Assembly (NCBI GenBank): GCA_964229355.1 | Contig: CAXRDE010000019.1 | Location: 389,557 to 453,556, forward strand | From: Candidatus Sericytochromatia bacterium | GTDB lineage: Bacteria; Cyanobacteriota; Sericytochromatia; UBA7694 | Direction: 5' to 3' | Length of the DNA stretch: 64,000 nt | Shown here: one piece after another, positions 20,805-49,416 of the stretch | How positions within the stretch are numbered: the stretch's first letter is position 1 | Layout: each line of letters opens with the position of its first letter | Made by a program: the position numbers and the translations under genes | The notes under the pieces: generated by a model | Seen by the model: only the letters and a program-made list of their open reading frames with translations | What the model was told of the DNA's origin: nothing | Databases searched by the model: none

Positions 20805-20951
20805 GGTGGATTTCAAAAAAAACGCTTTTTTTTGAAATTTGTGATGCATGTCTACTTGTGACACCTTAAAAAAGCGTGTAATATGTATCTCTGTGGCGCG
20901 CAAACGAATTTAACTTTTGCTTAAGCTTGAGTTAGGTTTAGCGTGAAGTTC

Positions 20952-27303: not shown

Positions 27304-27546
27304 ATGATTAAAGCACGGTGGCAGGGTTTTAACGTCGAATCCGGCGAAAATCAGGCTCCCATGCTGGTCACCCATTGGTATGTGTTGCAACAGGGCTTAA
27401 TTTTTGCCCTGTTTGCGGTGCCTCTTTTTTCTGGCCTTGCGGTGTGGCTGAGTCGTTTTTTACTCAAAGTTCAAGATAGACCTGTTTATATTCAAGGAGA
27501 TGCCCCCCATGAACCCACCCCTGAAAGTGCGCCCCCCTCATCTTAA
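27304..27546 (+). CDS. Small hypothetical membrane protein
   Basis: 80-aa ORF directly after nuoN with one predicted TM helix. Weak support. Confidence 0.3.
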   Translation: MIKARWQGFNVESGENQAPMLVTHWYVLQQGLIFALFAVPLFSGLAVWLSRFLLKVQDRPVYIQGDAPHEPTPESAPPSS

Positions 27547-29524: not shown

Positions 29525-29553
29525 AACAGCTTGAATGTAAATCCATAAAGAAA

Positions 29554-29582
29554 GGCCGTTATCTCAGGATAACGGCCTTTTT
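29554..29582. terminator. Hairpin terminator shared by convergent genes
   Basis: ggccgttatc tcag gataacggcc followed by T5; A-run on the opposite side. Confidence 0.65.
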
Positions 29583-29603: not shown

Positions 29604-30269
29604 TTAGAGGACGGTTTTGATGAGACGGTTGTTTTGCCACTGGGTTTCTTGACGATACCCGTAAGCGTCTACATATTGCTGCTGGCCGCCCGCATCGTTT
29701 TTATCACCACTGAAGTAAGCGATGGTTCCACCTACCACAGCACCGATGGCCATACCGGCAACACCTTTGCTCATGCCGAGCTTGCTGCCCACGGCTTCGT
29801 GCAGTTTGTTGACCAGCGGAATCTTACTGGTTACGCCACCGAACATGCCTCCACCCAGAGCACCGGTAACGGTCCGCTCAAAGGTGCCGACTTTTTCGCC
29901 AGAAGAGACGGGTTGACCCACCACTGCAGACTTTAACTCGTCTTCAACGAGCCAGCCGTCGTGGTTGACGTCAAACATGCGTAGCTCTTGACCGAGCTGG
30001 GCGTTTTGTTGTTCGACAGAAGCAATGTTCAATTGATCCGTGGAAATAACCTGATAGCCCTGGTTTGCGTCCTGGACAACGATCTCAACGCGACCGTTGT
30101 TGCGCATACCGTTCAGTTGGGTTTGGTTGGTTAAAGCAAATTGTTGGGTATTTGAAGGAGGAGCCTGTTGAACCGGCTGTTGATATTGTGGCTGTTGGGG
30201 GGCCGGTTGCTGGTACTGCGGTTGCTGTACCGGCTGCATAATCTGATTAAGGGGTCTTAACTGTCCCAT
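29604..30269 (-). CDS. Q/P-rich repeat protein with canonical EF-hand loop and C-terminal glycine-zipper membrane segment
   Basis: N-terminus QQPQYQQPAPQQPQYQQPVQQ repeats. EF-hand DVNHDGWLVEDE (D-x-N-x-D-G-x-L-x-x-x-E). C-terminus GALGGGMFGGVTS … GMAIGAVVGGTIAY. Confidence 0.65.
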   Translation of the reverse strand: MGQLRPLNQIMQPVQQPQYQQPAPQQPQYQQPVQQAPPSNTQQFALTNQTQLNGMRNNGRVEIVVQDANQGYQVISTDQLNIASVEQQNAQLGQELRMFDVNHDGWLVEDELKSAVVGQPVSSGEKVGTFERTVTGALGGGMFGGVTSKIPLVNKLHEAVGSKLGMSKGVAGMAIGAVVGGTIAYFSGDKNDAGGQQQYVDAYGYRQETQWQNNRLIKTVL

Positions 30270-30567
30270 TGTGATTCCTCCAAGACATTTGGCTTCTTAT
30301 ACCTGTATATCGGGCTGTCGGGATCAGATCTTGTGCCCTATGCTTACATTTTCTAAGAATTTAATCCTAATTTAATCCCATGACGGTGAAATGATTCTGG
30401 TAAAACCCCGTCTCTGCGTGTATTATAACGGATCTCAGGGTTGGAATACAACACCCGCGAACGTCCCCGGGTGGCGGGCTTTCAGATGCGTAAAACCCTG
30501 CCTTGATGCTGTGCGGGCTTTGAAACTGCTACACTGAAAGACAGCAAAACACGAGGGAGCTATACCC

Positions 30568-30930
30568 ATGGGCATGTTTTGGAATATGCATCAAGATCAA
30601 AAAATTCGCGCCGCAGCTGAACAGAGCAGCCGCAGCAGCCAAAAGGCCTCTCAGCTTGATGACCGCTTGCGCTTATTGGAGCAACGCCTTGACCATTTAA
30701 CCCTTTACACCCAGGCCATGTGGGAGCTGATTCGGGAAAACACCCGTCTTGAAGAGCAAGATATTATTGAACGCGCCCAACTGATTGATGGCCGTGATGG
30801 CAAAACCGATGGTAAAATTAGCACGTTGATTCTGACCTGTCCGGCCTGTCAACGCAACAATAACTCTGCAAAAAAGCAATGCATGTACTGTGGTGAAGCC
30901 CTACCCCGTGAACATATTTTTGAAAGCTAG
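30568..30930 (+). CDS. Small coiled-coil protein with C-terminal zinc-ribbon
   Basis: CPACQRNN … CMYCGEAL (CxxC…CxxC). Confidence 0.5.
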   Translation: MGMFWNMHQDQKIRAAAEQSSRSSQKASQLDDRLRLLEQRLDHLTLYTQAMWELIRENTRLEEQDIIERAQLIDGRDGKTDGKISTLILTCPACQRNNNSAKKQCMYCGEALPREHIFES

Positions 30931-32215
30931 TCGTCTTCTGCTGTCTCGAACCCCTTTGCTCTGGGTTCTGGTCTTTTGTTTTGGCCTGAATACCGCTGCT
31001 GGGGCTCAACCGCTCACCTACCAACCTTTGCCTGAAAGTTTTAATGAGGCCTTACAGCGCAGCCCCCTTCAGGTGGCCTTTACCCGTACTCCAGCGCAGC
31101 TGCAAAGTCCCGTACTGCCCGAAACCTATCGCCTGGACAGTGAAGACCAACTCACCCTTGACCTACAAAGTCCCCGTATCGCGCAAACCCATGCGGTAAC
31201 GGTGAACGAACAGGGGTTTGTCTTTATTCCCCGTCTGGGAACCCTTTTTGTCAAAGGCTTAACCCGAGAGGCGCTGGCGGCGCAGATTCAGCAACAGGTG
31301 CAGCAGCGCTTTGGTGACAGCAGTTTGCGGGTCAGCGTTTTTTTGCGACAGCCACGCCCGATCCAGGTTTTGGTGAGCGGTCAGGTGGCCCGTCCGGGGT
31401 ATCATCGGGTGCCCCAGGGAACGCCGGTGTTAGAGCTCTTGCGTACGGCGGGTGGGGTGTTGGATACAGGCTCGGTGATGGCGGTGCAATGGCAGCGGTC
31501 AACGGCGACCCGGAGCTTAAATCTCTGGCGCTTCTATGAACAGGGCAAAACCGATGAAAACCCCATGTTACAGGCGAGAGACCATGTCCATGTTCCGCCC
31601 ATGCCCTACCGTATGATGGCGCTGGGGGCTTTTAGCCAACCCGGTGTGTATGAAATTTCCACACCGCGTGTTTCGGTGCAGGATTTTGTGACCATGGCGG
31701 GCGGGGTAAAACCCAATGCCTCTCGGCTGTGGCATTGGCCACAGTTGCTGCAGGCCGGGCAGGGGCAGGGGGCCATGGCCGTGACGGCGACGTCAATGTT
31801 AGCGGCTGAAGATGTGCTCTATGCGCCACCTCAGCAGGTGGCGCAAGTGTCACGCTCGGTGTTGGTTCAGGGCATGGTTAAGCAACCTGGCTCACGGCCC
31901 TGGCAGCAAGGACAGCGTGTTTTAGACCTTTTAGAGCAAACCGGTGGGGCACAACCCAATGCCGATTTGAGCCAGGTACAATTGAGCCGTTATGAGGCCA
32001 GTACAGGGCAACGTACAACCCAGATCATTAACGTACAGGCTTATTTAAACGGTGCTGACCCCGATCTTCATAACCCTGTGTTGGCGGCTGGAGACGTCAT
32101 TACCGTGCCCGAAAATTTCTTCAATATCCGCAATATCAGCGAATTGACCACGTTGTTGATCAGTGCGTTAGGGATTGTCTCTGTCATTATTAACCTGAGT
32201 GCCGGGGGCAATTAG
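30890..32215 (+). CDS. Polysaccharide export protein (Wza/Poly_export + SLBB family)
   Basis: Signal peptide. Poly_export-like TVNEQGFVFIPRLGTLFVKGLTREAL. Repeated SLBB-like units. C-terminal TM helix. Start ambiguous (ATG 30890, GTG 30908, TTG 30920). Confidence 0.7.
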   Translation: MVKPYPVNIFLKASRLLLSRTPLLWVLVFCFGLNTAAGAQPLTYQPLPESFNEALQRSPLQVAFTRTPAQLQSPVLPETYRLDSEDQLTLDLQSPRIAQTHAVTVNEQGFVFIPRLGTLFVKGLTREALAAQIQQQVQQRFGDSSLRVSVFLRQPRPIQVLVSGQVARPGYHRVPQGTPVLELLRTAGGVLDTGSVMAVQWQRSTATRSLNLWRFYEQGKTDENPMLQARDHVHVPPMPYRMMALGAFSQPGVYEISTPRVSVQDFVTMAGGVKPNASRLWHWPQLLQAGQGQGAMAVTATSMLAAEDVLYAPPQQVAQVSRSVLVQGMVKQPGSRPWQQGQRVLDLLEQTGGAQPNADLSQVQLSRYEASTGQRTTQIINVQAYLNGADPDLHNPVLAAGDVITVPENFFNIRNISELTTLLISALGIVSVIINLSAGGN

Positions 32216-34871: not shown

Positions 34872-35066
34872 ATGTCTCAACTGCTTTTGCCCCGCTTATC
34901 TGAAGAGCGCTTCGCGGCACTGCAAGCCCAATGTCATCTGTCTGCCGAGGCCATTGATCATCTGGTGGCTGAGCTGCATGAGGCAGAAGCTGTCCATTCA
35001 CCCCTCACGTCAGAGACCCCCGCTGCGCAAGATCTACGAGCTACGCAAGAGGATGCCAGCCTGTAA
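34872..35066 (+). CDS. Small acidic helical ORF (64 aa, single Cys), unknown
   Basis: AAGGA-like RBS 9 nt upstream. Convergent with a 33-nt overlap on the DUF2063-like gene. Confidence 0.3.
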   Translation: MSQLLLPRLSEERFAALQAQCHLSAEAIDHLVAELHEAEAVHSPLTSETPAAQDLRATQEDASL

Positions 35067-35798
35067 AAATGCTTGTGCTGCACGAATGAGCGTTTCTGCA
35101 TCTCGTTGTGCATCGCTCTCAGGGTGTTTTTGAAGCACCTCAGCCACAAGGGTCTCCCAGGATTTTTCTCCCAGACATTGCAACAGGCACTCCGCCAGCA
35201 AAGGGCTGATTTTTTCAAGTCTCACGCCTTTAAACTCCTGGAGGAGTAAATAGGGGGTACTCGGATATAAAGGCCATTGTAAAAGGTCTTTCGCTTGCGT
35301 ATGGGGCTGCTGTAAAGCTGACCACACCAAAGGAAAATAAGGTCCCAGATAAACAACTCTGGCCCAGCTGGCCAATTGAGGACCCGCGCAGGCAGGAAAT
35401 ACCTGCGGTAATTGATAAAAACTCAGTGACTTGATGTGGGCTTCATAACGACACAGTTCTGCAAAGTGCAGGGTGCCTGCTTCAGAATAATCCGCCAAAA
35501 AACGCAATAATCTTACCTGTACTTGCTGTGTACTCTCATGGGCGCAGTGCTTATACACATCAAAAAAATCTAACAAAGCGGTATTCAACCGATCGGGCCG
35601 TGCGAGCTTTTTGACGCTGGGCGACAACTGTTGGTAGAAGTACACCAGGGTCTGTTCTTGCATCGATTGACGCATGGGTTGAGCCTCATGCCAGTTTTGC
35701 AAATGGCCCTTTTCGTGTTCAGAGAGAGAACTTGACAGCGTAGACGGATTTGAAAATAGGGCATTGAGCCAGCTGTTTTGGTACTGTTTTAAGCTCAT
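35034..35798 (-). CDS. DUF2063-like protein (MbnC/BufC/TglI-type MNIO partner)
   Basis: 254 aa. N-terminus LKQYQNSWLNALFSNPS, an internal motif TLVYFYQQL (vYrnn-like), C-terminus AFLQAGILL, as remembered for DUF2063. Start abuts the stop of the upstream MNIO-fusion gene. Confidence 0.5.
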   Translation of the reverse strand: MSLKQYQNSWLNALFSNPSTLSSSLSEHEKGHLQNWHEAQPMRQSMQEQTLVYFYQQLSPSVKKLARPDRLNTALLDFFDVYKHCAHESTQQVQVRLLRFLADYSEAGTLHFAELCRYEAHIKSLSFYQLPQVFPACAGPQLASWARVVYLGPYFPLVWSALQQPHTQAKDLLQWPLYPSTPYLLLQEFKGVRLEKISPLLAECLLQCLGEKSWETLVAEVLQKHPESDAQRDAETLIRAAQAFLQAGILLRSS

Positions 35799-37180
35799 CA
35801 GGTGACCTGCTTTATAAACTGTTGGTGTAGGGGCTCGAGTATTTTCAGATCTGCTTCTGAGTGGGGACCTGGTGTGTAACTCAGCATTTGTAGGGGAAAG
35901 CGCTGCAAGATCGTCTGGGCTAACTGGGCAATACGGGGGGTGTGGAGGCGGGTCGGCTTTTCGATATGCAAGGCAACCACATGGGCGGTGGGGAGTTTAT
36001 CGAGATACGCTTCGGGTGTCATGTAAAAGGCGCTGGCATTGACCAGCAAGGTGTCTAAAGACAGAGACAACAGGCATTGGGCTTCTTCGGCAATATGTTT
36101 TAGAAAGGTGGCTTCGTCCATTTCATAGCTTTTGGGTGGCACACGATAGGCCACCGGCTCTAAAATAGGAATCACGCCCAGGTTCTGACGGAGTGTTTTG
36201 AGTTGGCTTTTCACGTGCTCGAGGGCTTCTTCACCGGGTAAGAGGGCATGTAAAAATGGACTCCCATTGTTTTCGGTATAGCGAAAACCCAGTCCCATTT
36301 TAAGCCAATTGGTATTTAAGCGCTGGATAAGACGGTGCAAATGAGAGCGAATATTTTCAGGGGGCGGTGTGGTACTGGCCAGAGATAACTGTTGACTGTA
36401 CATGCCCAAAGGTTTTTTTTGGGATAGGTGCAGCAGAAGACTGTCAAAGCTCAGGGGTTCAAGGTGGGCAGCAGGCAGCTCCAAATAGTCCACCTGGGGG
36501 ATATTAACAATCGTTTGCGGATCCTGGCTCGTGTGGTGCCTCACGGCAAAACCGGCCGGAGTCAGGGGTTGAAAAGGAGATTGCGAGTGGATTTGAAAGG
36601 GTTTTTGCAGAATGCGCTGCTCTACCTGATGCGGCGCCTGGGGATCCAGATTACGCACCTGGGCTTTGCCCTGAAAAGCCCAGAGGGTTTGCCAATCCGC
36701 AAAGCGCTTTGTGAACTCTTCTGGGCTAAAAACCCCCGTGGGGCGTGGCGAGATTTGGTTGCTGGTGCGGGCTAATTTTTCGTGGGCCCAGACGTCTTCG
36801 GGTGAAAGACCTGAAACAATGAAAAAACCACCGGGTTTAAGGGCTGACTTTAAGCGGCCGATAATGCGGGCCCGTTCCCCATTGGGAATAAAGGGAAAGA
36901 CGTTGAGACCCAAAATGAGTCCGTAGGTGTCCCGCTGCATGCGAAACCCGCGAATATCCTGGTGTAACCAGGTAATGTTGGGATGGGGATAGCGCTGCTG
37001 TGCCTCGGTGACACATTGTTGATCCACGTCTAAGGCCGTGACATGAAAGCCGTACTCGGCCAAATGATGGGTTAACTCGCCCCTGCCAAAGCCAATGTCG
37101 CACACATGGAGATGAGGAATCCAGGGCAATAAACGCAAGAGGTCACTCAGGTGCAGTTGTCGGCTCGAGAAGACGCTCAT
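35798..37180 (-). CDS. Fusion of class-I SAM-dependent methyltransferase (N-terminal) with a DUF692 / MNIO-like TIM-barrel domain (C-terminal)
   Basis: MTase motif I VCDIGFGRGELTHHLAEYG with acidic post-I HVTALDVD. C-terminal ~250 aa carry DUF692-like blocks (QVDYLELPAAH, LGMYSQQLSLAS, LLPGEEALEHV…LGVIPILEPVAYR, CLLSLSLDTLLVNASAF, HVVALHIEKP). Several expected metal ligands appear substituted. Confidence 0.6.
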   Translation of the reverse strand: MSVFSSRQLHLSDLLRLLPWIPHLHVCDIGFGRGELTHHLAEYGFHVTALDVDQQCVTEAQQRYPHPNITWLHQDIRGFRMQRDTYGLILGLNVFPFIPNGERARIIGRLKSALKPGGFFIVSGLSPEDVWAHEKLARTSNQISPRPTGVFSPEEFTKRFADWQTLWAFQGKAQVRNLDPQAPHQVEQRILQKPFQIHSQSPFQPLTPAGFAVRHHTSQDPQTIVNIPQVDYLELPAAHLEPLSFDSLLLHLSQKKPLGMYSQQLSLASTTPPPENIRSHLHRLIQRLNTNWLKMGLGFRYTENNGSPFLHALLPGEEALEHVKSQLKTLRQNLGVIPILEPVAYRVPPKSYEMDEATFLKHIAEEAQCLLSLSLDTLLVNASAFYMTPEAYLDKLPTAHVVALHIEKPTRLHTPRIAQLAQTILQRFPLQMLSYTPGPHSEADLKILEPLHQQFIKQVT

Positions 37181-46153: not shown

Positions 46154-48604
46154 CTATTTCGCTGGGGTAAAACGCAACTGTCCCATGCGGTCAAGACGGT
46201 GAATACCACCATAGGTAAATGACCAGCAGTGAAAATCGGCGATTTCCTGTGGACGACGGCGACAAAAGTTACCACGCCAGTTTTTATCTCCGGCTTTAAT
46301 GCCCAGAGATTGGAAGGGAATGGCCATTTCCACGATCCAGCCATGGGAAAATTGACGGGCCGCACTCTGCCAGGGGCGATTCCAGCTCTGGTCAAAGGAC
46401 GCCCGCTGATAACGCACATTGGCGGGGTTCACCACAAAATAATAGTAGCTGGAACCTTTGCCTTCGGGATCTAAAAACAATTGTACGGTGTCATCGGTAT
46501 TCAAAAAGGAACTGTCCTGACGGTACGAAATATTGACCCGATCGTTCCGGGGCTCGTCATTGACATAGGCCACATAGAGGGCATTGTCATCGTAGGTGAT
46601 ACGCACTTCTGTACTGGTGTTGGCACGGGCGGAGCCAGTGTTCCAGAAAAACTGCGGTAATCGGTAAGCCTGTTGCCAGAGGGGTTCGTCGATGCGCGCG
46701 TCGATACTCGGCGCGGAACGGGTATAGGGAATCTCCATACTGGGCAGGGGACGGGCTTCAGGCAACACCTTACTGGGGGGGTTGGTGGGGGGAACGTAGC
46801 CGGGCTTACTGATGGCTTGCTGGTAATTGCGGGACAGCTTAACCAGATCCCTATAGTGTTGCACAATGCGCGGTTTAAGCTCTGCGGGAAAAGTCAGGGT
46901 GCCTTCTTGAATGCCTTTGTGTTCGGCCTGTATATTGGCCACCAGGCTGCTTGCTGAAGCGCGCAGGGGTTTCTCTGCCAGGGTGGCGTTGAGAGACTTT
47001 AAGCGCGCAGAGGCGTCGCGCAATACCTGTTGGTTGGCTTTACTCAGCGCTTGCGTGCTGGCGCCTTTTTCGGCCATGTCGTTGAGCCACTGGCGCAAAA
47101 ATTGAACCTGGGTCAGCAGGGCTTTGGGCAGATCGTGGTGAGGGACCACGGCTTTTTGCTTAAAAGGACCGACCTGTAAGGCCTTTAACATATTGCCTGT
47201 GAGTTGACTGCTGGCAAAAATAGACATACCGTTGGCGTTGCGTTGCCGTAGCATATGGATCTGATTGAGCATTTCCAGGCTGTTTTGCCCCAGTTTGTGG
47301 GCGCCAATAATCGGGTAAATCACGTCGTGACGCTGCTCTTGATCCGTCTCCCACTCCATCCAGAGATCCAGGTCTCTAAAGTCACTGGTGTACATCATGG
47401 GAGAAATGTAATTGATCCAGTGGTTATTGCCCCAGTGTCGCCAGTGTTGCATTTTGGTGTTGCGGGCCTGAATTTCGTTGCGAAAAACGGCTCCACCCAA
47501 ATCCAGGGGTCTTTTTTGATTGCTCAAGAGCAAGCGCAGGTCTTTGACCATGCTGTGCACCTGTTCTTCGCGCCACAAATGCCACTGGGCTTGTAAGTCG
47601 CTGTCGGGTGCAATGCGGGGCGACGGAAAGGATCCCACCTTGCGGAAGTAATCCAGTTGAAAGCGGGTTAGGCTTAATTCGTCTTCTACCTGGTTATTGC
47701 CGTAGCGAATATAGTCCATCAAAAAGCCCTGAATGGGGTACTTGCTGGCGGTTTGATTCATCAGACCCGCGAGCAGCTCTCGCCACTCGTGCGAAGCGGG
47801 GCTCATAAAAGAGGTGGACTCGTCTTCAATTTCACTGTTCGTGCTGCGGTAAGCGCGGCCGTCTAGTGGATCCGCCATTAAGGCAGGCAAGCGCCGGGTC
47901 AAGGGGTTTTGTTTGGCAATGGTGGGCGATAACACGCGGAACATCCAAAACCAGGGATATACTTCTAATCCCTCTGCCTGGGCGGCATCGGTAACGAGCT
48001 TTAACATGTCCATATTTGGGGGTAATTCGGGGTCAAGGGCCACAGTGGGGTTCGGAAACAGCGCATAACCCCGGCGAAAAATTTCGGGGTAGACAGCGTT
48101 AAAACCGGCCTCTTTAAAGCGCTTCATTAGACGGCGCATGGCTTCGGCATTTTTGGGCAGCATGCCTGCATCAAGCAAGGCGCCGCGCAATTCCACCCGA
48201 CGGGTGGGCAACATCTGAATCTGGGCATGGATCAAGTCAAAATAGGTGCGCTGTAAAAGCTCTTTTTGCTCGTCATTATCGAGGAAATTGCTGATTTTTT
48301 TACGGTCTTCACCGGCGCTGATTTTCTTGCGGATGTCTTCAATGCGCTGCAAGTTGCTGCTAACAAGGTTAAGCCGCTGACGAATCTCATCATCAGGTAC
48401 ATCGGGGTCTAATCTTAGCACTTGCCATTGGCCTTCTACCTGACGGTAAAGGCTGCGTAGCGCTTCGGTGGTCTCTTGCTGATCATTGGGCAGGGTCATG
48501 AATTGAGAGGGTATGCTCTCGGGAATTGCTGCTGAAAGGGGAGCGCTGAAACTGCTCCAGAGCAGACAGGCCATAATGCCGCAAAAATATGAACGTAACG
48601 CCAT
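46154..48604 (-). CDS. Secreted glycoside-hydrolase-like family 10 (GHL10) protein with C-terminal CBM9-like domain
   Basis: Signal peptide. GFNAVYPEIFRRGYALFP core typical of GHL10. C-terminal DARIDEPLWQQAYRL…ITYDDNALYVAYV resembles CBM9. Confidence 0.55.
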   Translation of the reverse strand: MALRSYFCGIMACLLWSSFSAPLSAAIPESIPSQFMTLPNDQQETTEALRSLYRQVEGQWQVLRLDPDVPDDEIRQRLNLVSSNLQRIEDIRKKISAGEDRKKISNFLDNDEQKELLQRTYFDLIHAQIQMLPTRRVELRGALLDAGMLPKNAEAMRRLMKRFKEAGFNAVYPEIFRRGYALFPNPTVALDPELPPNMDMLKLVTDAAQAEGLEVYPWFWMFRVLSPTIAKQNPLTRRLPALMADPLDGRAYRSTNSEIEDESTSFMSPASHEWRELLAGLMNQTASKYPIQGFLMDYIRYGNNQVEDELSLTRFQLDYFRKVGSFPSPRIAPDSDLQAQWHLWREEQVHSMVKDLRLLLSNQKRPLDLGGAVFRNEIQARNTKMQHWRHWGNNHWINYISPMMYTSDFRDLDLWMEWETDQEQRHDVIYPIIGAHKLGQNSLEMLNQIHMLRQRNANGMSIFASSQLTGNMLKALQVGPFKQKAVVPHHDLPKALLTQVQFLRQWLNDMAEKGASTQALSKANQQVLRDASARLKSLNATLAEKPLRASASSLVANIQAEHKGIQEGTLTFPAELKPRIVQHYRDLVKLSRNYQQAISKPGYVPPTNPPSKVLPEARPLPSMEIPYTRSAPSIDARIDEPLWQQAYRLPQFFWNTGSARANTSTEVRITYDDNALYVAYVNDEPRNDRVNISYRQDSSFLNTDDTVQLFLDPEGKGSSYYYFVVNPANVRYQRASFDQSWNRPWQSAARQFSHGWIVEMAIPFQSLGIKAGDKNWRGNFCRRRPQEIADFHCWSFTYGGIHRLDRMGQLRFTPAK

Positions 48605-48732
48605 GAGGAAAATTAAACCCCGTTATCAAGAATGTTAAAATAGGCTGAACTGCATTTTAACGCAATATTGGCACAGATACCTTTTGATATGCGTATAATG
48701 AAAAAAAGATTGCGAGATAGGTGGGTATTACA

Positions 48733-49416
48733 ATGTCTCATTCTATTCTGGTGGTGGAAGATGATCCAGATTTAGGATTGCTCCTGAAGCTAGAATTGGA
48801 AGCGGAAGGTTACGAAGTGACGTTGGCCAAAGATGGTATGCAAGGCCTGATTGAACTGCGTCAAAAGAACCCCGATATTATGGTTCTCGATCGCTCTCTG
48901 CCCAAAATGAATGGCATTGAGGTCTGTCTACGAACCCGTCAAACCTCCGATATTCCTATTTTAATGCTCACCAGCTTTGATCGGGTTGAAGAAAAAGTCG
49001 AAGGCTTAGATGCCGGGGCGAATGACTACTTAACCAAGCCCTTTCACATTAACGAATTGCTGGCGCGCATTCGTTCTCTCGTGCGTCATCTGGGCGTTCA
49101 AAGCACCCAGGGTGCGCATCTGACCTTTGCCGATGTTTCGCTAGACCTGCTCAAGCGTGAAGCCCATCGCGGTGACAAAACCCTAAACCTGTCCACCAAG
49201 GAGTTTGACCTTTTGACCTTTTTTATGCATCATCCCAATCAGGTGCTCTCAAAGTCTCGCCTGATCGAAGCGGTGTGGGAATGGGATTACGATGGGGAAG
49301 ACAATATTGTGGAAGTGTATATTCACAACCTGCGCAAAAAATTAAGCTATAACGACGCGCAGCCTCGCCTTTTGCATACGGTGCGGGGTGCCGGATATAT
49401 TTTGAAAGAAGATTAA
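48733..49416 (+). CDS. OmpR-family response regulator
   Basis: Receiver ILVVEDD…D, winged helix EVYIHNLRKKL. ORF opens with GTG at 48721. Confidence 0.85.
   Translation: MSHSILVVEDDPDLGLLLKLELEAEGYEVTLAKDGMQGLIELRQKNPDIMVLDRSLPKMNGIEVCLRTRQTSDIPILMLTSFDRVEEKVEGLDAGANDYLTKPFHINELLARIRSLVRHLGVQSTQGAHLTFADVSLDLLKREAHRGDKTLNLSTKEFDLLTFFMHHPNQVLSKSRLIEAVWEWDYDGEDNIVEVYIHNLRKKLSYNDAQPRLLHTVRGAGYILKED

What the first reader, a model, noticed from the sequence alone, without database searches (positions are those of the whole stretch)
29604..30269. Prion-like Q/P-rich repeat + perfect EF-hand + glycine-zipper membrane tail in one small protein
The N-terminal ~45 aa are QQPQYQQP-type repeats (imperfect tandem repeats also visible at DNA level around 30150-30250). 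This is followed by a canonical 12-residue EF-hand loop DVNHDGWLVEDE and a C-terminal GxxxG glycine-zipper predicted to insert in a membrane. The combination suggests a Ca-responsive, possibly self-associating membrane or envelope protein. It is flanked by a bidirectional terminator and its own promoter region, so it is an isolated gene.
Basis: seen in the sequence. Interest (0 to 1): 0.5.

Follow-up and report, generated by a model that had tools for sequence, protein, structure and literature searches.

The report
Lone EF-hand protein, Sericytochromatia-specific family
This is a real, strongly conserved gene from non-photosynthetic relatives of cyanobacteria, encoding an uncharacterised protein whose single calcium-binding-type loop sits in an apparently new fold interrupted by a glycine-rich, weakly hydrophobic segment; it is probably a calcium-responsive protein, not a prion-like one.

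Summary
The 221-aa ORF (29604-30269, minus strand) is real. dN/dS is 0.02-0.04, and the identical protein occurs in four independent assemblies. Its own promoter and a bidirectional terminator are confirmed. It belongs to an unannotated family; every named member is from Candidatus Sericytochromatia.

The EF-hand-type loop (aa 100-111) is the most conserved feature. Its ligand positions are invariant even in relatives of about 20% identity. It is not "perfect": position 9 is Val (fails PROSITE), Pfam scores are sub-threshold, and it is unpaired.

The Q/P/Y region is a 24-43 aa, proline-rich linker of variable length. It follows a conserved N-terminal peptide and is absent from distant relatives. 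It is not prion-like and not a DNA tandem repeat.

Best reading: a Ca2+-responsive switch at the base of a glycine-zipper hairpin.

Bonus: a conserved, unexplained sequence module lies in the ~145-nt leader.

The parts
29604..30269 (-). CDS of the 221-aa protein (stop codon included)
   Evidence: ORF list. dN/dS is 0.024 and 0.043 against the orthologs in L009 and L010. A 100% identical protein occurs in 4 independent assemblies.
30234..30269 (-). Conserved N-terminal peptide, aa 1-12 (M-G-x-L-R-P-L-N-Q/E-I-M)
   Evidence: M1, L4, P6, L7 and I10 are nearly invariant and P13 is invariant in 35 orthologs.
30150..30233 (-). Q/P/Y-rich low-complexity linker, aa 13-40 (two 10-aa units QQPQYQQPAP and QQPQYQQPVQ)
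   Evidence: In orthologs the linker is 24-43 aa, with Q 36-60%, P 14-33% and N about 0. The two units share 19 of 30 nucleotides. TRF finds no DNA tandem repeat. The linker is absent in distant relatives.
29919..30149 (-). N-terminal part of the globular core, aa 41-117 (b1-a1-b2-b3-a2, then EF helix-loop-helix)
   Evidence: AF2 model 2 gives pLDDT 88-94. Invariant residues include N57, G59, V61, E62, D67 and G71.
29937..29972 (-). EF-hand-type 12-residue loop, aa 100-111 (DVNHDGWLVEDE)
   Evidence: D100, N102, D104, G105, W106, E109 and E111 are invariant in orthologs. D100, D104, E109 and E111 are invariant across the superfamily. A profile search of PDB sequences hits calmodulin, troponin C and CML EF-hands at E 3e-4 to 0.02. 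hhalign against calmodulin EF1 gives E 2.9e-4, in register.
29679..29918 (-). Gly-rich insertion, aa 118-197. It contains zipper segment 1 (aa 133-147, nt 29829-29873), a Lys-rich connector (aa 148-168) and zipper segment 2 (aa 169-187, nt 29709-29765).
   Evidence: pLDDT is below 50. GxxxGxxxG motifs are present. G139, G140, G144, G176, A177 and G180 are invariant. KD19 maximum is 1.51 and Hessa dG is +3.6. The region is variable among distant relatives and absent in P0059.
29607..29678 (-). Conserved C-terminal segment, aa 198-221 (YGYRQETQWQNNRLIKTVL). It returns to the core domain.
   Evidence: pLDDT is 73-91. There is a beta-bridge at Y205 and a strand at aa 217-220. Q210, W211, R215, K218 and L221 are invariant. 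Y205 is nearly invariant across the superfamily.
29551..29580 (.). Bidirectional intrinsic terminator hairpin (13-bp stem, A-run on one side, T-run on the other), shared with the convergent S9 peptidase gene
   Evidence: dG is -19.8 kcal/mol with z -6.2 on the minus strand, and the hairpin folds equally on the plus strand. Equivalent hairpin-plus-T-run terminators follow the stop codon in most orthologs.
30275..30281 (-). Shine-Dalgarno sequence GGAGGAA, 5 nt before the ATG
   Evidence: CTGGAGGAA is invariant in 18 upstream regions.
30327..30335 (-). Invariant leader box CACAAGATC
   Evidence: It lies 61-71 nt upstream of the ATG in nearly all loci. In the 262 kb held, the whole module is found only in front of this gene family, and the 9-nt box on its own occurs just once elsewhere.
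30348..30377 (-). 11-bp-phased TTAA module (GATTAAAT-tag-GATTAAAT-tct-TAGAAAAT)
   Evidence: TRF finds a period of 11 at 30358-30378. The TTAA-N7-TTAA(A) spacing is conserved in 18 upstream regions, with 31-33 nt from unit 2 to CAAGAT. The module is retained in front of each tandem paralog.
30422..30451 (-). Sigma-70-type promoter: -35 TTGTAT (30446-30451), 18-nt spacer, -10 TATAAT (30422-30427). The predicted leader is about 145 nt.
   Evidence: A TTGAAG or TTGTAT hexamer, a spacer of about 17 nt, and TATAAT or TATACT are conserved at the same relative position in window, L005, L006, L008, L009, L010, L019, L011a and L020a.

Best explanation
The gene encodes a member of an uncharacterised protein family. 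Every member that carries a taxon name comes from Candidatus Sericytochromatia.

The protein has four parts:
(i) a conserved 12-aa N-terminal peptide;
(ii) a flexible P/Q/Y-rich tether of variable length;
(iii) one compact alpha/beta domain built from aa 41-117 plus the C-terminal aa 198-221, which contains a single unpaired EF-hand-type loop;
(iv) an ~80-aa Gly-rich insertion in that domain, made of two glycine-zipper segments joined by a Lys-rich connector.

Proposed mechanism (inferred). The EF loop binds Ca2+ through D100, N102, D104, the W106 carbonyl and E111. The loop's short beta segment (W106-L107) is probably paired with the conserved C-terminal Y205 region instead of with a second EF-hand. 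The exiting helix leads into zipper segment 1, and zipper segment 2 leads back to Y205. Ca2+ occupancy would therefore clamp or release the base of the glycine-zipper hairpin, and so control its self-association or its peripheral or re-entrant association with the cytoplasmic face of the membrane. The N-terminal peptide on its tether would recruit a partner.

Shown: the architecture, the conservation, the purifying selection, the split-domain model and the monocistronic expression signals.
Inferred: Ca2+ binding, the coupling to the hairpin, membrane association and partner binding.
For: - Real gene: dN/dS 0.024-0.043; identical protein in 4 independent assemblies.
- Family: 36 orthologs of 216-242 aa with no Pfam annotation. 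There are 45 representatives at 50% identity among 1.84 billion proteins. All named members are Sericytochromatia or Blackallbacteria.
- EF loop: the ligand positions are the only invariant columns across the superfamily (D100, D104, E109, E111; N102 nearly invariant). A profile search hits calmodulin, troponin C and CML EF-hands in register. The AF2 secondary structure gives helix aa 90-97, the loop, a bridge at loop positions 7-8, and a helix starting at position 10.
- Split domain: pLDDT is 88-94 for aa 39-117 and 73-91 for aa 198-221, but below 50 for aa 118-197. The relative P0059 keeps both the N-domain and the C-terminal motif although it lacks any hydrophobic segment.
- Glycine zippers are conserved.
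- No signal peptide: the N-terminus is polar (sequence).
- The linker varies from 24 to 43 aa while the N-terminal peptide is conserved.
- Own promoter and terminator are conserved.
Against: - Position 9 of the loop is Val, so PROSITE PS00018 is not matched. All Pfam EF-hand scores are below threshold. hhalign probability is only 41%.
- A lone EF-hand normally needs a partner. Dimerisation or the proposed Y205 pairing was not verified, because only the DSSP string was available, not coordinates.
- Hydrophobicity of the zipper segments is marginal and the Hessa dG is positive in every member, so membrane association is unproven.
- The Lys-rich connector would break the positive-inside rule if the segments formed a full two-helix transmembrane hairpin.
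- There is no operon partner or recurring functional neighbour to support any pathway.
- There are no expression or biochemical data.
Confidence: 0.4

Rival explanations
1. A soluble cytoplasmic Ca2+-binding protein, acting as a buffer or as a stress or structural protein. In this reading the Gly-rich insertion is a flexible disordered loop, not a membrane element, and Ca2+ only stabilises the fold.
For: Hessa dG is positive (+2 to +4 kcal/mol) in all Q/P-clade members and the median KD is 1.55. The insertion has pLDDT below 50. Its length and sequence vary, and it is absent in P0059. There is no signal peptide.
Against: The GxxxGxxxG register and several Gly residues are invariant in orthologs, which is not expected of a mere spacer. 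Most distant members have a segment with KD above 1.6, up to 2.26.
Confidence: 0.22
2. An exported or envelope protein in which the EF-like loop is a constitutive structural Ca2+ site, as in many extracytoplasmic DxDxDG proteins.
For: Known Pfam glycine-zipper families (Gly-zipper_Omp, YMGG) give weak hits. The best-studied bacterial EF-hand sensor, EfhP, is periplasmic (PMC9132961). The gene sits beside Wza/Wzz-type polysaccharide export genes in this window.
Against: No signal peptide, lipobox or N-terminal hydrophobic segment occurs in any family member. The Wza/Wzz neighbourhood is not conserved in other loci. The Gly-zipper Pfam hits have E about 0.6.
Confidence: 0.12
3. A small pore-forming or membrane-perturbing protein (holin-, bacteriocin- or toxin-like), whose glycine zippers oligomerise into a channel gated by Ca2+.
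For: Glycine zippers are typical of channel-forming peptides. One distant member gives weak hits to Bacteriocin_IIc and the RTX N-terminal domain in its Gly-rich segment. The gene is tightly regulated and isolated, with a dedicated conserved leader element.
Against: There are no PADLOC or PHROG hits for the window protein. No adjacent immunity, lysis or secretion gene is seen. The gene behaves as a core, vertically inherited gene under strong purifying selection with partial synteny next to the nuo operon. It has a strong constitutive-type promoter.
Confidence: 0.08
4. A prion-like or amyloid-forming self-assembling protein driven by the Q/P repeat.
For: The N-terminal region has about 46% Gln plus Tyr residues, and a duplicated 10-aa unit.
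Against: The region is only 24-43 aa, has 14-33% Pro (a beta-sheet breaker) and almost no Asn, varies freely by indels, and is missing from distant homologs that keep the rest of the protein.
Confidence: 0.04

Closest known systems
Canonical EF-hand Ca2+ sensors (calmodulin, troponin C, CML; Pfam EF-hand clan)
   Same: A 12-residue DxNxDGxIxxxE-type loop flanked by helices. The family profile aligns in register with calmodulin EF1 and with troponin C and CML loops. Gly is at position 6, a hydrophobic residue at position 8 and Glu at position 12.
   Different: There is a single loop and no paired second EF-hand. Position 9 is Val. Scores are below the Pfam and PROSITE thresholds. The loop is embedded in an alpha/beta domain with a four-stranded sheet that has no structural match in the PDB.
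EfhP (PA4107) of Pseudomonas aeruginosa and other bacterial EF-hand proteins (CabD, CasA, calerythrin)
   Same: A small bacterial protein with EF-hand-type Ca2+ site(s), proposed here, like EfhP, to act as a Ca2+ sensor (PMC9132961).
   Different: EfhP has two canonical EF-hands and a signal peptide and is periplasmic. The protein here has one non-canonical loop, no signal peptide, a Gly-zipper insertion and a P/Q tether. No sequence homology appears beyond the loop.
Glycine-zipper families (Pfam Gly-zipper_Omp, Gly-zipper_YMGG, Gly-zipper_OmpA; the (G/A/S)xxxGxxxG motif)
   Same: Conserved GxxxGxxxG motifs at aa 136-144 and 172-180. Weak Pfam hits at aa 159-187.
   Different: E-values of 0.6-0.8 are far below threshold. 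There is no lipoprotein signal. The zipper is an internal insertion between two halves of a globular domain. Hydrophobicity is marginal.
P/Q-rich flexible tethers of bacterial membrane-associated proteins (for example the ZipA P/Q domain; from general knowledge)
   Same: A proline- and glutamine-rich stretch whose length varies and whose sequence is poorly conserved, linking a conserved short peptide to a folded domain.
   Different: There is no homology. The partner of the N-terminal peptide is unknown. This is a comparison of how it may work, not a claim of membership.
Cyanobacterial Pho box (SphR/PhoB site: at least 3 tandem 8-bp CTTAACCT units with 3-bp linkers; PMC1906773)
   Same: The leader module has 8-bp units with a TTAA core repeated at an exact 11-bp period.
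   Different: Only the TTAA core matches the consensus, and the third unit is degenerate in the window clade. The module lies about 45-80 nt downstream of a canonical -35/-10 promoter instead of replacing the -35. No link to pst or pho genes was shown.

Membership tests
EF-hand (PROSITE PS00018 / Pfam EF-hand clan) | 12-residue loop with oxygen ligands at positions 1, 3, 5 and 12 (D, D/N/S, D/N/S, E/D) | tested here: met
   D100, N102, D104 and E111 are invariant in 35 orthologs. D, D and E are invariant, and N nearly invariant, across the superfamily.
EF-hand (PROSITE PS00018 / Pfam EF-hand clan) | Gly at position 6 and Ile/Leu/Val at position 8 | tested here: met
   G105 is invariant and position 8 is L or I in all orthologs.
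EF-hand (PROSITE PS00018 / Pfam EF-hand clan) | Position 9 (-X) drawn from D, E, N, Q, S, T, A, G or C, so that the full PS00018 pattern matches | tested here: not met
   Val is at position 9 in 34 of 35 orthologs. Only P0036 matches the full pattern. Several distant members have Glu there.
EF-hand (PROSITE PS00018 / Pfam EF-hand clan) | Score above the curated Pfam gathering threshold | tested here: not met
   EF-hand_7 scores 15.6 bits against 30, and EF-hand_6 12.8 against 25. All distant members are also sub-threshold.
EF-hand (PROSITE PS00018 / Pfam EF-hand clan) | Helix-loop-helix geometry, with the exiting helix starting at loop position 10 | tested here: met
   The AF2 model (pLDDT above 88 up to aa 117) has a helix at aa 90-97, a bridge at loop positions 7-8, and a helix from E109. 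This is a prediction, not an experiment.
EF-hand (PROSITE PS00018 / Pfam EF-hand clan) | EF-hands occur as a pair forming a four-helix domain | tested here: not met
EF-hand (PROSITE PS00018 / Pfam EF-hand clan) | Binds Ca2+ | not testable with these tools
   Needs ITC, Tb3+ luminescence or a 45Ca overlay.
Glycine-zipper membrane proteins (Pfam Gly-zipper_Omp / YMGG) | (G/A/S)xxxGxxxG motif conserved in a hydrophobic segment | tested here: met
   GMAIGAVVG at aa 172-180 and GALGGGMFG at aa 136-144. G139, G140, G144, G176, A177 and G180 are invariant.
Glycine-zipper membrane proteins (Pfam Gly-zipper_Omp / YMGG) | Score above the Pfam gathering threshold | tested here: not met
   10.5 and 10.0 bits against cut-offs of 25 and 28.9, with E 0.6-0.8.
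Glycine-zipper membrane proteins (Pfam Gly-zipper_Omp / YMGG) | Segment hydrophobic enough to span or insert into a membrane | tested here: inconclusive
   KD19 maximum is 1.51 (clade median 1.55) and Hessa dG is +3.6 kcal/mol. The NuoN control gives 2.67 and -1.4.
Glycine-zipper membrane proteins (Pfam Gly-zipper_Omp / YMGG) | Signal peptide or lipobox directing export (typical of the Omp-type families) | tested here: not met
   The N-terminus MGQLRPLNQIMQPVQQ has no hydrophobic core and no Cys. The same holds across the family.
Prion-like (Q/N-rich) domain | Long (about 60 aa or more) Q/N-rich, proline-poor region | tested here: not met
   The region is 24-43 aa with P 14-33% and N 0-3%.
Prion-like (Q/N-rich) domain | Domain retained as a functional unit across homologs | tested here: not met
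   It is absent from all distant members that keep the core, the EF loop and the C-terminal motif.
Cyanobacterial Pho box (SphR site) | At least 3 tandem 8-bp units separated by 3-bp linkers | tested here: inconclusive
   Two strong units and a weaker third unit lie at an exact 11-bp period. The definition is taken from PMC1906773.
Cyanobacterial Pho box (SphR site) | Unit consensus CTTAACCT | tested here: not met
   The units here read (G/C)ATTAAA(T/C), so only the TTAA core is shared.
Cyanobacterial Pho box (SphR site) | Located in place of the -35, just upstream of the -10 | tested here: not met
   A canonical -35, spacer of about 17 nt and TATAAT lie 40-80 nt upstream of the module, so the module is inside the predicted leader.
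Cyanobacterial Pho box (SphR site) | Same motif upstream of pst or pho genes in the same genomes | not tested
   No pst or pho loci from these genomes were available. The pattern scan of metagenomes was swamped by chance hits.

The most novel reading that the evidence does not exclude
A new Ca2+-binding fold in which a lone EF-hand is completed by the protein's own conserved C-terminal segment instead of a second EF-hand. The EF-hand sits at the base of a glycine-zipper hairpin, so that Ca2+ gates the hairpin's membrane insertion or oligomerisation. This would be a lineage-specific Ca2+ switch of the non-photosynthetic sister group of cyanobacteria. The gene also carries a dedicated, sequence-conserved leader element recognised by a factor not yet identified.
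Probability: 0.17. Interest if true: 0.65.

Novelty: new variant of a known kind. Interest (0 to 1): 0.42.

Why it matters
Bacterial Ca2+ signalling is poorly understood and few prokaryotic EF-hand sensors have been characterised. This family would add an unusual solution: one unpaired EF-hand inside a fold with no PDB match, wired to a glycine-zipper element. It comes from Sericytochromatia, a lineage known only from metagenomes. W106 at loop position 7 is a built-in donor for Tb3+ luminescence, so Ca2+ binding can be tested directly. The conserved leader module offers a way to find a lineage-specific regulator. The value is moderate. The protein is a clade-restricted hypothetical, and every functional statement beyond its architecture is inferred.

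Tried and rejected
1. Pfam, NCBIfam, PADLOC and PHROGs scans of the protein gave only sub-threshold EF-hand and Gly-zipper hits and no defence or phage family. The DUF6861, RTX and Bacteriocin_IIc hits in distant members fall in the Gly/Ala-rich segment and were treated as compositional.
2. AF2 on the full-length protein with 35 close orthologs gave pLDDT 42.6 and was unusable. Only the trimmed query with a more diverse alignment gave a confident core.
4. Acylphosphatase hits in the PDB sequence search align to the Gly-rich part and were rejected as compositional.
5. An RNA-structure explanation of the conserved leader found no support. Rfam gave no hit in the leader. RNAalifold predicted zero consensus pairs on the proximal half, the distal half and the whole leader.
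6. The reading of the module as a Pho-box activator site replacing the -35 was largely rejected once a canonical promoter was found upstream of it.
7. A Fur-box-like palindrome reading of the module (by eye, from the sequences) holds only in the L011/L020 clade, not in the window clade, so it was dropped.
8. The window-wide scan for the TTAA pattern gave only two unrelated palindromic sites.
These were almost all chance matches in AT-rich DNA; only L077 and L131 are true family loci, so no regulon could be defined.
10. Two of the three word-indexed homolog searches were inefficient. The candidate cap was probably filled by low-complexity words, and the N-domain profile found only 7 hits.
11. 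Gene-neighbourhood analysis found partial synteny only, with the end of the nuo operon and the NfeD/Band_7 genes always on the opposite strand. No operon partner emerged.
12. tblastn found no paralog in the window.
Full report
OBSERVATION.
The ORF at 29604..30269 on the minus strand is present and encodes 221 aa. It is a genuine protein-coding gene. Against its closest orthologs (78-81% amino-acid identity, L009 and L010), synonymous sites are near saturation while dN/dS is 0.024 and 0.043. The identical protein was assembled independently from four sequencing runs. This disposes of the 'assembly artefact' refutation.

The relaxed EF-loop pattern occurs once in 28,125 residues of ORF stretches of at least 100 aa in the window, at this gene. 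Shuffles give 0.085.

The hairpin at 29551-29580, with an A-run on one side and a T-run on the other, folds at -19.8 kcal/mol (z = -6.2) on the minus strand and equally well on the plus strand. It can therefore terminate both this gene and the convergent S9 peptidase gene.

Four details of the observation do not hold:
- Tandem Repeats Finder sees no DNA repeat inside the ORF. Only 9-14-nt two-copy matches exist. The two 10-aa protein units (QQPQYQQPAP and QQPQYQQPVQ) share just 19 of 30 nucleotides, so the duplication is old and is maintained at the protein level.
- The EF loop is not 'perfect'. It fails PROSITE PS00018 at position 9, which is Val in 34 of 35 orthologs. Pfam EF-hand models score 13-16 bits against cut-offs of 25-30.
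- There is one EF loop only.
- The glycine zipper is not a tail (see Structure below).

FAMILY.
A search of 5.8 billion proteins returned 36 proteins, the query's own entry plus 35 orthologs, of 216-242 aa. None has a Pfam domain. Every hit with a source name is a 'hypothetical protein' of a Candidatus Sericytochromatia MAG. A scan of one genome per GTDB species found 11 loci, all Sericytochromatia or Blackallbacteria. This class belongs to the Cyanobacteriota/Melainabacteria group.

A profile search of 1.84 billion cluster representatives found 45 proteins at E no greater than 1e-3. Besides chance multi-EF-hand proteins, these include about 25 distant relatives of 150-280 aa that match the whole core. 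The one distant relative with a name is again from Sericytochromatia.

The distant relatives lack the Q/P region. They share these features:
- a short N-terminal strand (xSFQVxxV);
- the hairpin NNGKVDIVV...G.Y.ISGDKI.L.EL;
- the loop DxNxDGF(L/I)xExEL;
- in most, a Gly/Ala-rich hydrophobic stretch;
- a C-terminal Y(R/K)TxEWN...K(T/A)(V/I)R motif.

Across this superfamily, at about 20-30% identity, the only invariant columns are D100, D104, E109 and E111. N102, N58, V61, L112 and Y205 are nearly invariant. The metal-ligand positions of the EF loop are thus the most strongly constrained feature of the family. That is the main argument that the loop is functional. Profile comparisons place it in register with real EF-hands: calmodulin, troponin C and CML at E 3e-4 to 0.02, and calmodulin EF1 by hhalign at E 2.9e-4 with probability 41%.

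THE Q/P REGION.
In 14 orthologs and paralogs the stretch between the conserved N-terminal peptide (M-G/P-x-L-R-P-L-N-E/Q-I-M) and the core is 24-43 aa. It contains 36-60% Gln, 14-33% Pro, a few Tyr and essentially no Asn. It accounts for most of the length variation between orthologs. It is too short and too proline-rich for a prion-like domain, and distant relatives do without it. The pattern of a conserved terminal peptide followed by a variable P/Q linker fits a flexible tether that presents a short binding motif. The partner is unknown.

STRUCTURE.
AlphaFold2 on the full-length protein with close orthologs failed (pLDDT 42.6). With the Q/P region removed and distant relatives added, the model became confident for aa 39-117 (pLDDT 88-94) and for aa ~198-221 (73-91). 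aa 118-197 stayed below 50.

The secondary structure of the model is:
- b1, aa 42-45
- a1, aa 50-55
- b2, aa 61-67
- b3, aa 71-77
- a2, aa 82-88
- a3, aa 90-97 (the helix entering the EF loop)
- a beta-bridge at W106-L107 (loop positions 7-8)
- a helix starting at E109 (loop position 10)
- after the low-confidence insertion, a bridge at Y205 and a final strand at aa 217-220

MEMBRANE QUESTION.
The insertion contains GALGGGMFG (aa 136-144) and GMAIGAVVG (aa 172-180), with invariant glycines, joined by a connector carrying four Lys. The best 19-residue window has a Kyte-Doolittle mean of 1.51 (clade median 1.55). Its position-independent Hessa dG is +3.6 kcal/mol, and this value is positive in every family member. 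NuoN from the same window gives 2.67 and -1.4.

No family member has a signal peptide. Both ends of the insertion emerge from one domain, so the two ends lie on the same side of any membrane. The possibilities are a re-entrant or peripheral association, an oligomer-dependent insertion, or no membrane contact at all.

GENOMIC SETTING AND EXPRESSION SIGNALS.
The gene is always flanked by genes on the opposite strand. In the window, L005, L006 and L008 it lies convergent to the end of the nuoL-M-N operon. In L005, L006 and L020 it is divergent from an NfeD gene (NfeD with Band_7 in L005 and L006). In more distant loci the neighbours are unrelated. Two lineages carry tandem paralogs (L011, L020, L077). 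Strong hairpin-plus-T-run terminators follow the stop codon in nearly all orthologs.

Upstream, a sigma-70-type promoter is conserved: TTGAAG or TTGTAT, a spacer of about 17 nt, then TATAAT or TATACT. In the window these are -35 at 30446-30451 and -10 at 30422-30427. The consensus scanner missed the window's copy because its -35 matches only 3 of 6 positions. 'Isolated gene with its own promoter and terminator' is confirmed.

AN UNEXPECTED CONSERVED LEADER.
Between the promoter and the invariant CTGGAGGAA Shine-Dalgarno sequence, 18 distinct upstream regions share a module. It consists of 8-bp units with a TTAA core at an exact 11-bp period, then 31-33 nt from unit 2 to an invariant CACAAGATC, then CGAnA. 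These regions belong to orthologs whose proteins are only about 45-58% identical to the window's. In the window the units read GATTAAAT-tag-GATTAAAT-tct-TAGAAAAT (30348-30377) and the box lies at 30327-30335.

Two loci depart from the usual spacing, by +12 and -10 nt, roughly one helical turn each. The module is retained in front of both copies of tandem paralogs, although the downstream copies have no promoter of their own. In the 262 kb of related DNA that I hold, it occurs only in front of this gene family.

The module is not an Rfam family, and RNAalifold finds no consensus pairing in either half or in the whole leader. Its 8+3-bp architecture and TTAA core resemble OmpR/PhoB-type sites such as the cyanobacterial Pho box, which is CTTAACCT repeated three times with 3-bp linkers (PMC1906773). 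However, only the core matches, and the module lies downstream of the promoter rather than replacing the -35. I leave it as an unexplained, gene-specific cis element. It may be an operator, an internal activator-dependent promoter, or a single-stranded RNA motif. A pattern scan of metagenomes was swamped by chance hits and did not reveal a regulon.

MECHANISM.
Shown:
- a conserved, selected, monocistronic gene;
- a single EF-type loop whose ligands are the family's most conserved residues;
- a split globular domain with a Gly-zipper insertion;
- a variable P/Q tether behind a conserved N-terminal peptide.

Inferred:
- the loop binds Ca2+;
- the exiting helix runs into zipper segment 1, and zipper segment 2 runs back to the Y205 segment next to the loop, so Ca2+ occupancy is positioned to control the conformation, self-association or membrane association of the hairpin;
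- the N-terminal peptide recruits a partner.

I give this composite reading 0.40. The main rival (0.22) keeps Ca2+ binding but treats the insertion as a flexible soluble loop. An exported structural-Ca2+ protein (0.12), a pore-former (0.08) and a prion-like assembly (0.04) are less likely, for the reasons listed under the rival explanations.

COMPARISON AND NOVELTY.
The protein works like an EF-hand Ca2+ sensor but fails several membership criteria of the EF-hand family: pairing, position 9, and the curated thresholds. It differs from the characterised bacterial sensor EfhP, which has two canonical EF-hands and is periplasmic (PMC9132961). It carries glycine-zipper motifs but is not a member of the Pfam Gly-zipper families. 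Full-text literature searches found nothing describing this combination, or anything on Ca2+ biology in Sericytochromatia.

I rate it a new variant of a known kind: an uncharacterised, clade-restricted family with an unpaired EF-hand in an apparently new fold. Interest is moderate (0.42). The architecture and the dedicated leader element are unusual and directly testable, but every functional statement remains inferential.

Noticed in passing
window 30327-30377 (- strand); same element in L005-L020, L077, L131: A conserved leader module: 11-bp-phased TTAA units followed by an invariant CACAAGATC. It lies between a canonical promoter and the Shine-Dalgarno sequence, is kept in front of each tandem paralog, has no predicted RNA structure, and is found only in front of this gene family in 262 kb of related DNA. 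The factor that recognises it is unknown.
   Followed up: yes
L011 3189-3875 and 4001-4687; L020 994-1668 and 1794-2468; L077: Some Sericytochromatia carry two tandem paralogs of the gene (pN 0.26 between the L011 copies). They are separated by about 125 nt that contain the leader module but no promoter and no strong terminator, which suggests co-transcription.
   Followed up: partly
window 35798-37180 (-) and 35034-35798 (-): A 460-aa fusion of a SAM methyltransferase domain with an MbnB/TglH/ChrH RiPP-modification domain (Pfam E 2.7e-20). It is immediately followed by a 254-aa protein with no Pfam hit. This may be a peptide-modification gene pair.
   Followed up: no
window 30568-30930 (+): The divergent neighbour encodes a 120-aa protein with no Pfam hit and a C-terminal CPAC...CMYC zinc-ribbon-like motif. 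Its 3' end overlaps the start of the Wza-like polysaccharide export gene (30890-32215), which is followed by a Wzz/GNVR chain-length gene.
   Followed up: no
window 27304-27546 (+); L005 6780-7178; L006 7464-8000; L008 7951-8402: One or two small ORFs (57-95 aa, no Pfam hit) recur directly downstream of nuoN at the end of the nuo operon in several Sericytochromatia loci. In the window the 80-aa ORF overlaps the start of the S9 peptidase gene.
   Followed up: no
superfamily alignment A4, C-terminus: In most distant family members the last residue is Arg (for example KTVR, RTAR, DFIR, AHIR), while the Q/P clade ends in Leu. A conserved terminal residue suggests that the free C-terminus itself is structurally or functionally important.
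   Followed up: no
window 48635-48660 and 20910-20935: Two palindromic AT-rich sites turned up in the TTAA-pattern scan, for example TTAAAATAGGCTGAACTGCATTTTAA. The first lies in the divergent intergenic region between the genes at 46154-48604 (-) and 48721-49416 (+). They may be operator sites.
   Followed up: no
L005 4295-5757; L006 4395-5771; L020 231-701: An NfeD gene (followed by a Band_7/stomatin-type gene in L005 and L006) lies divergently next to the EF-hand gene in three loci, but not in the window. This could be plain synteny or a functional link to membrane microdomains.
   Followed up: partly
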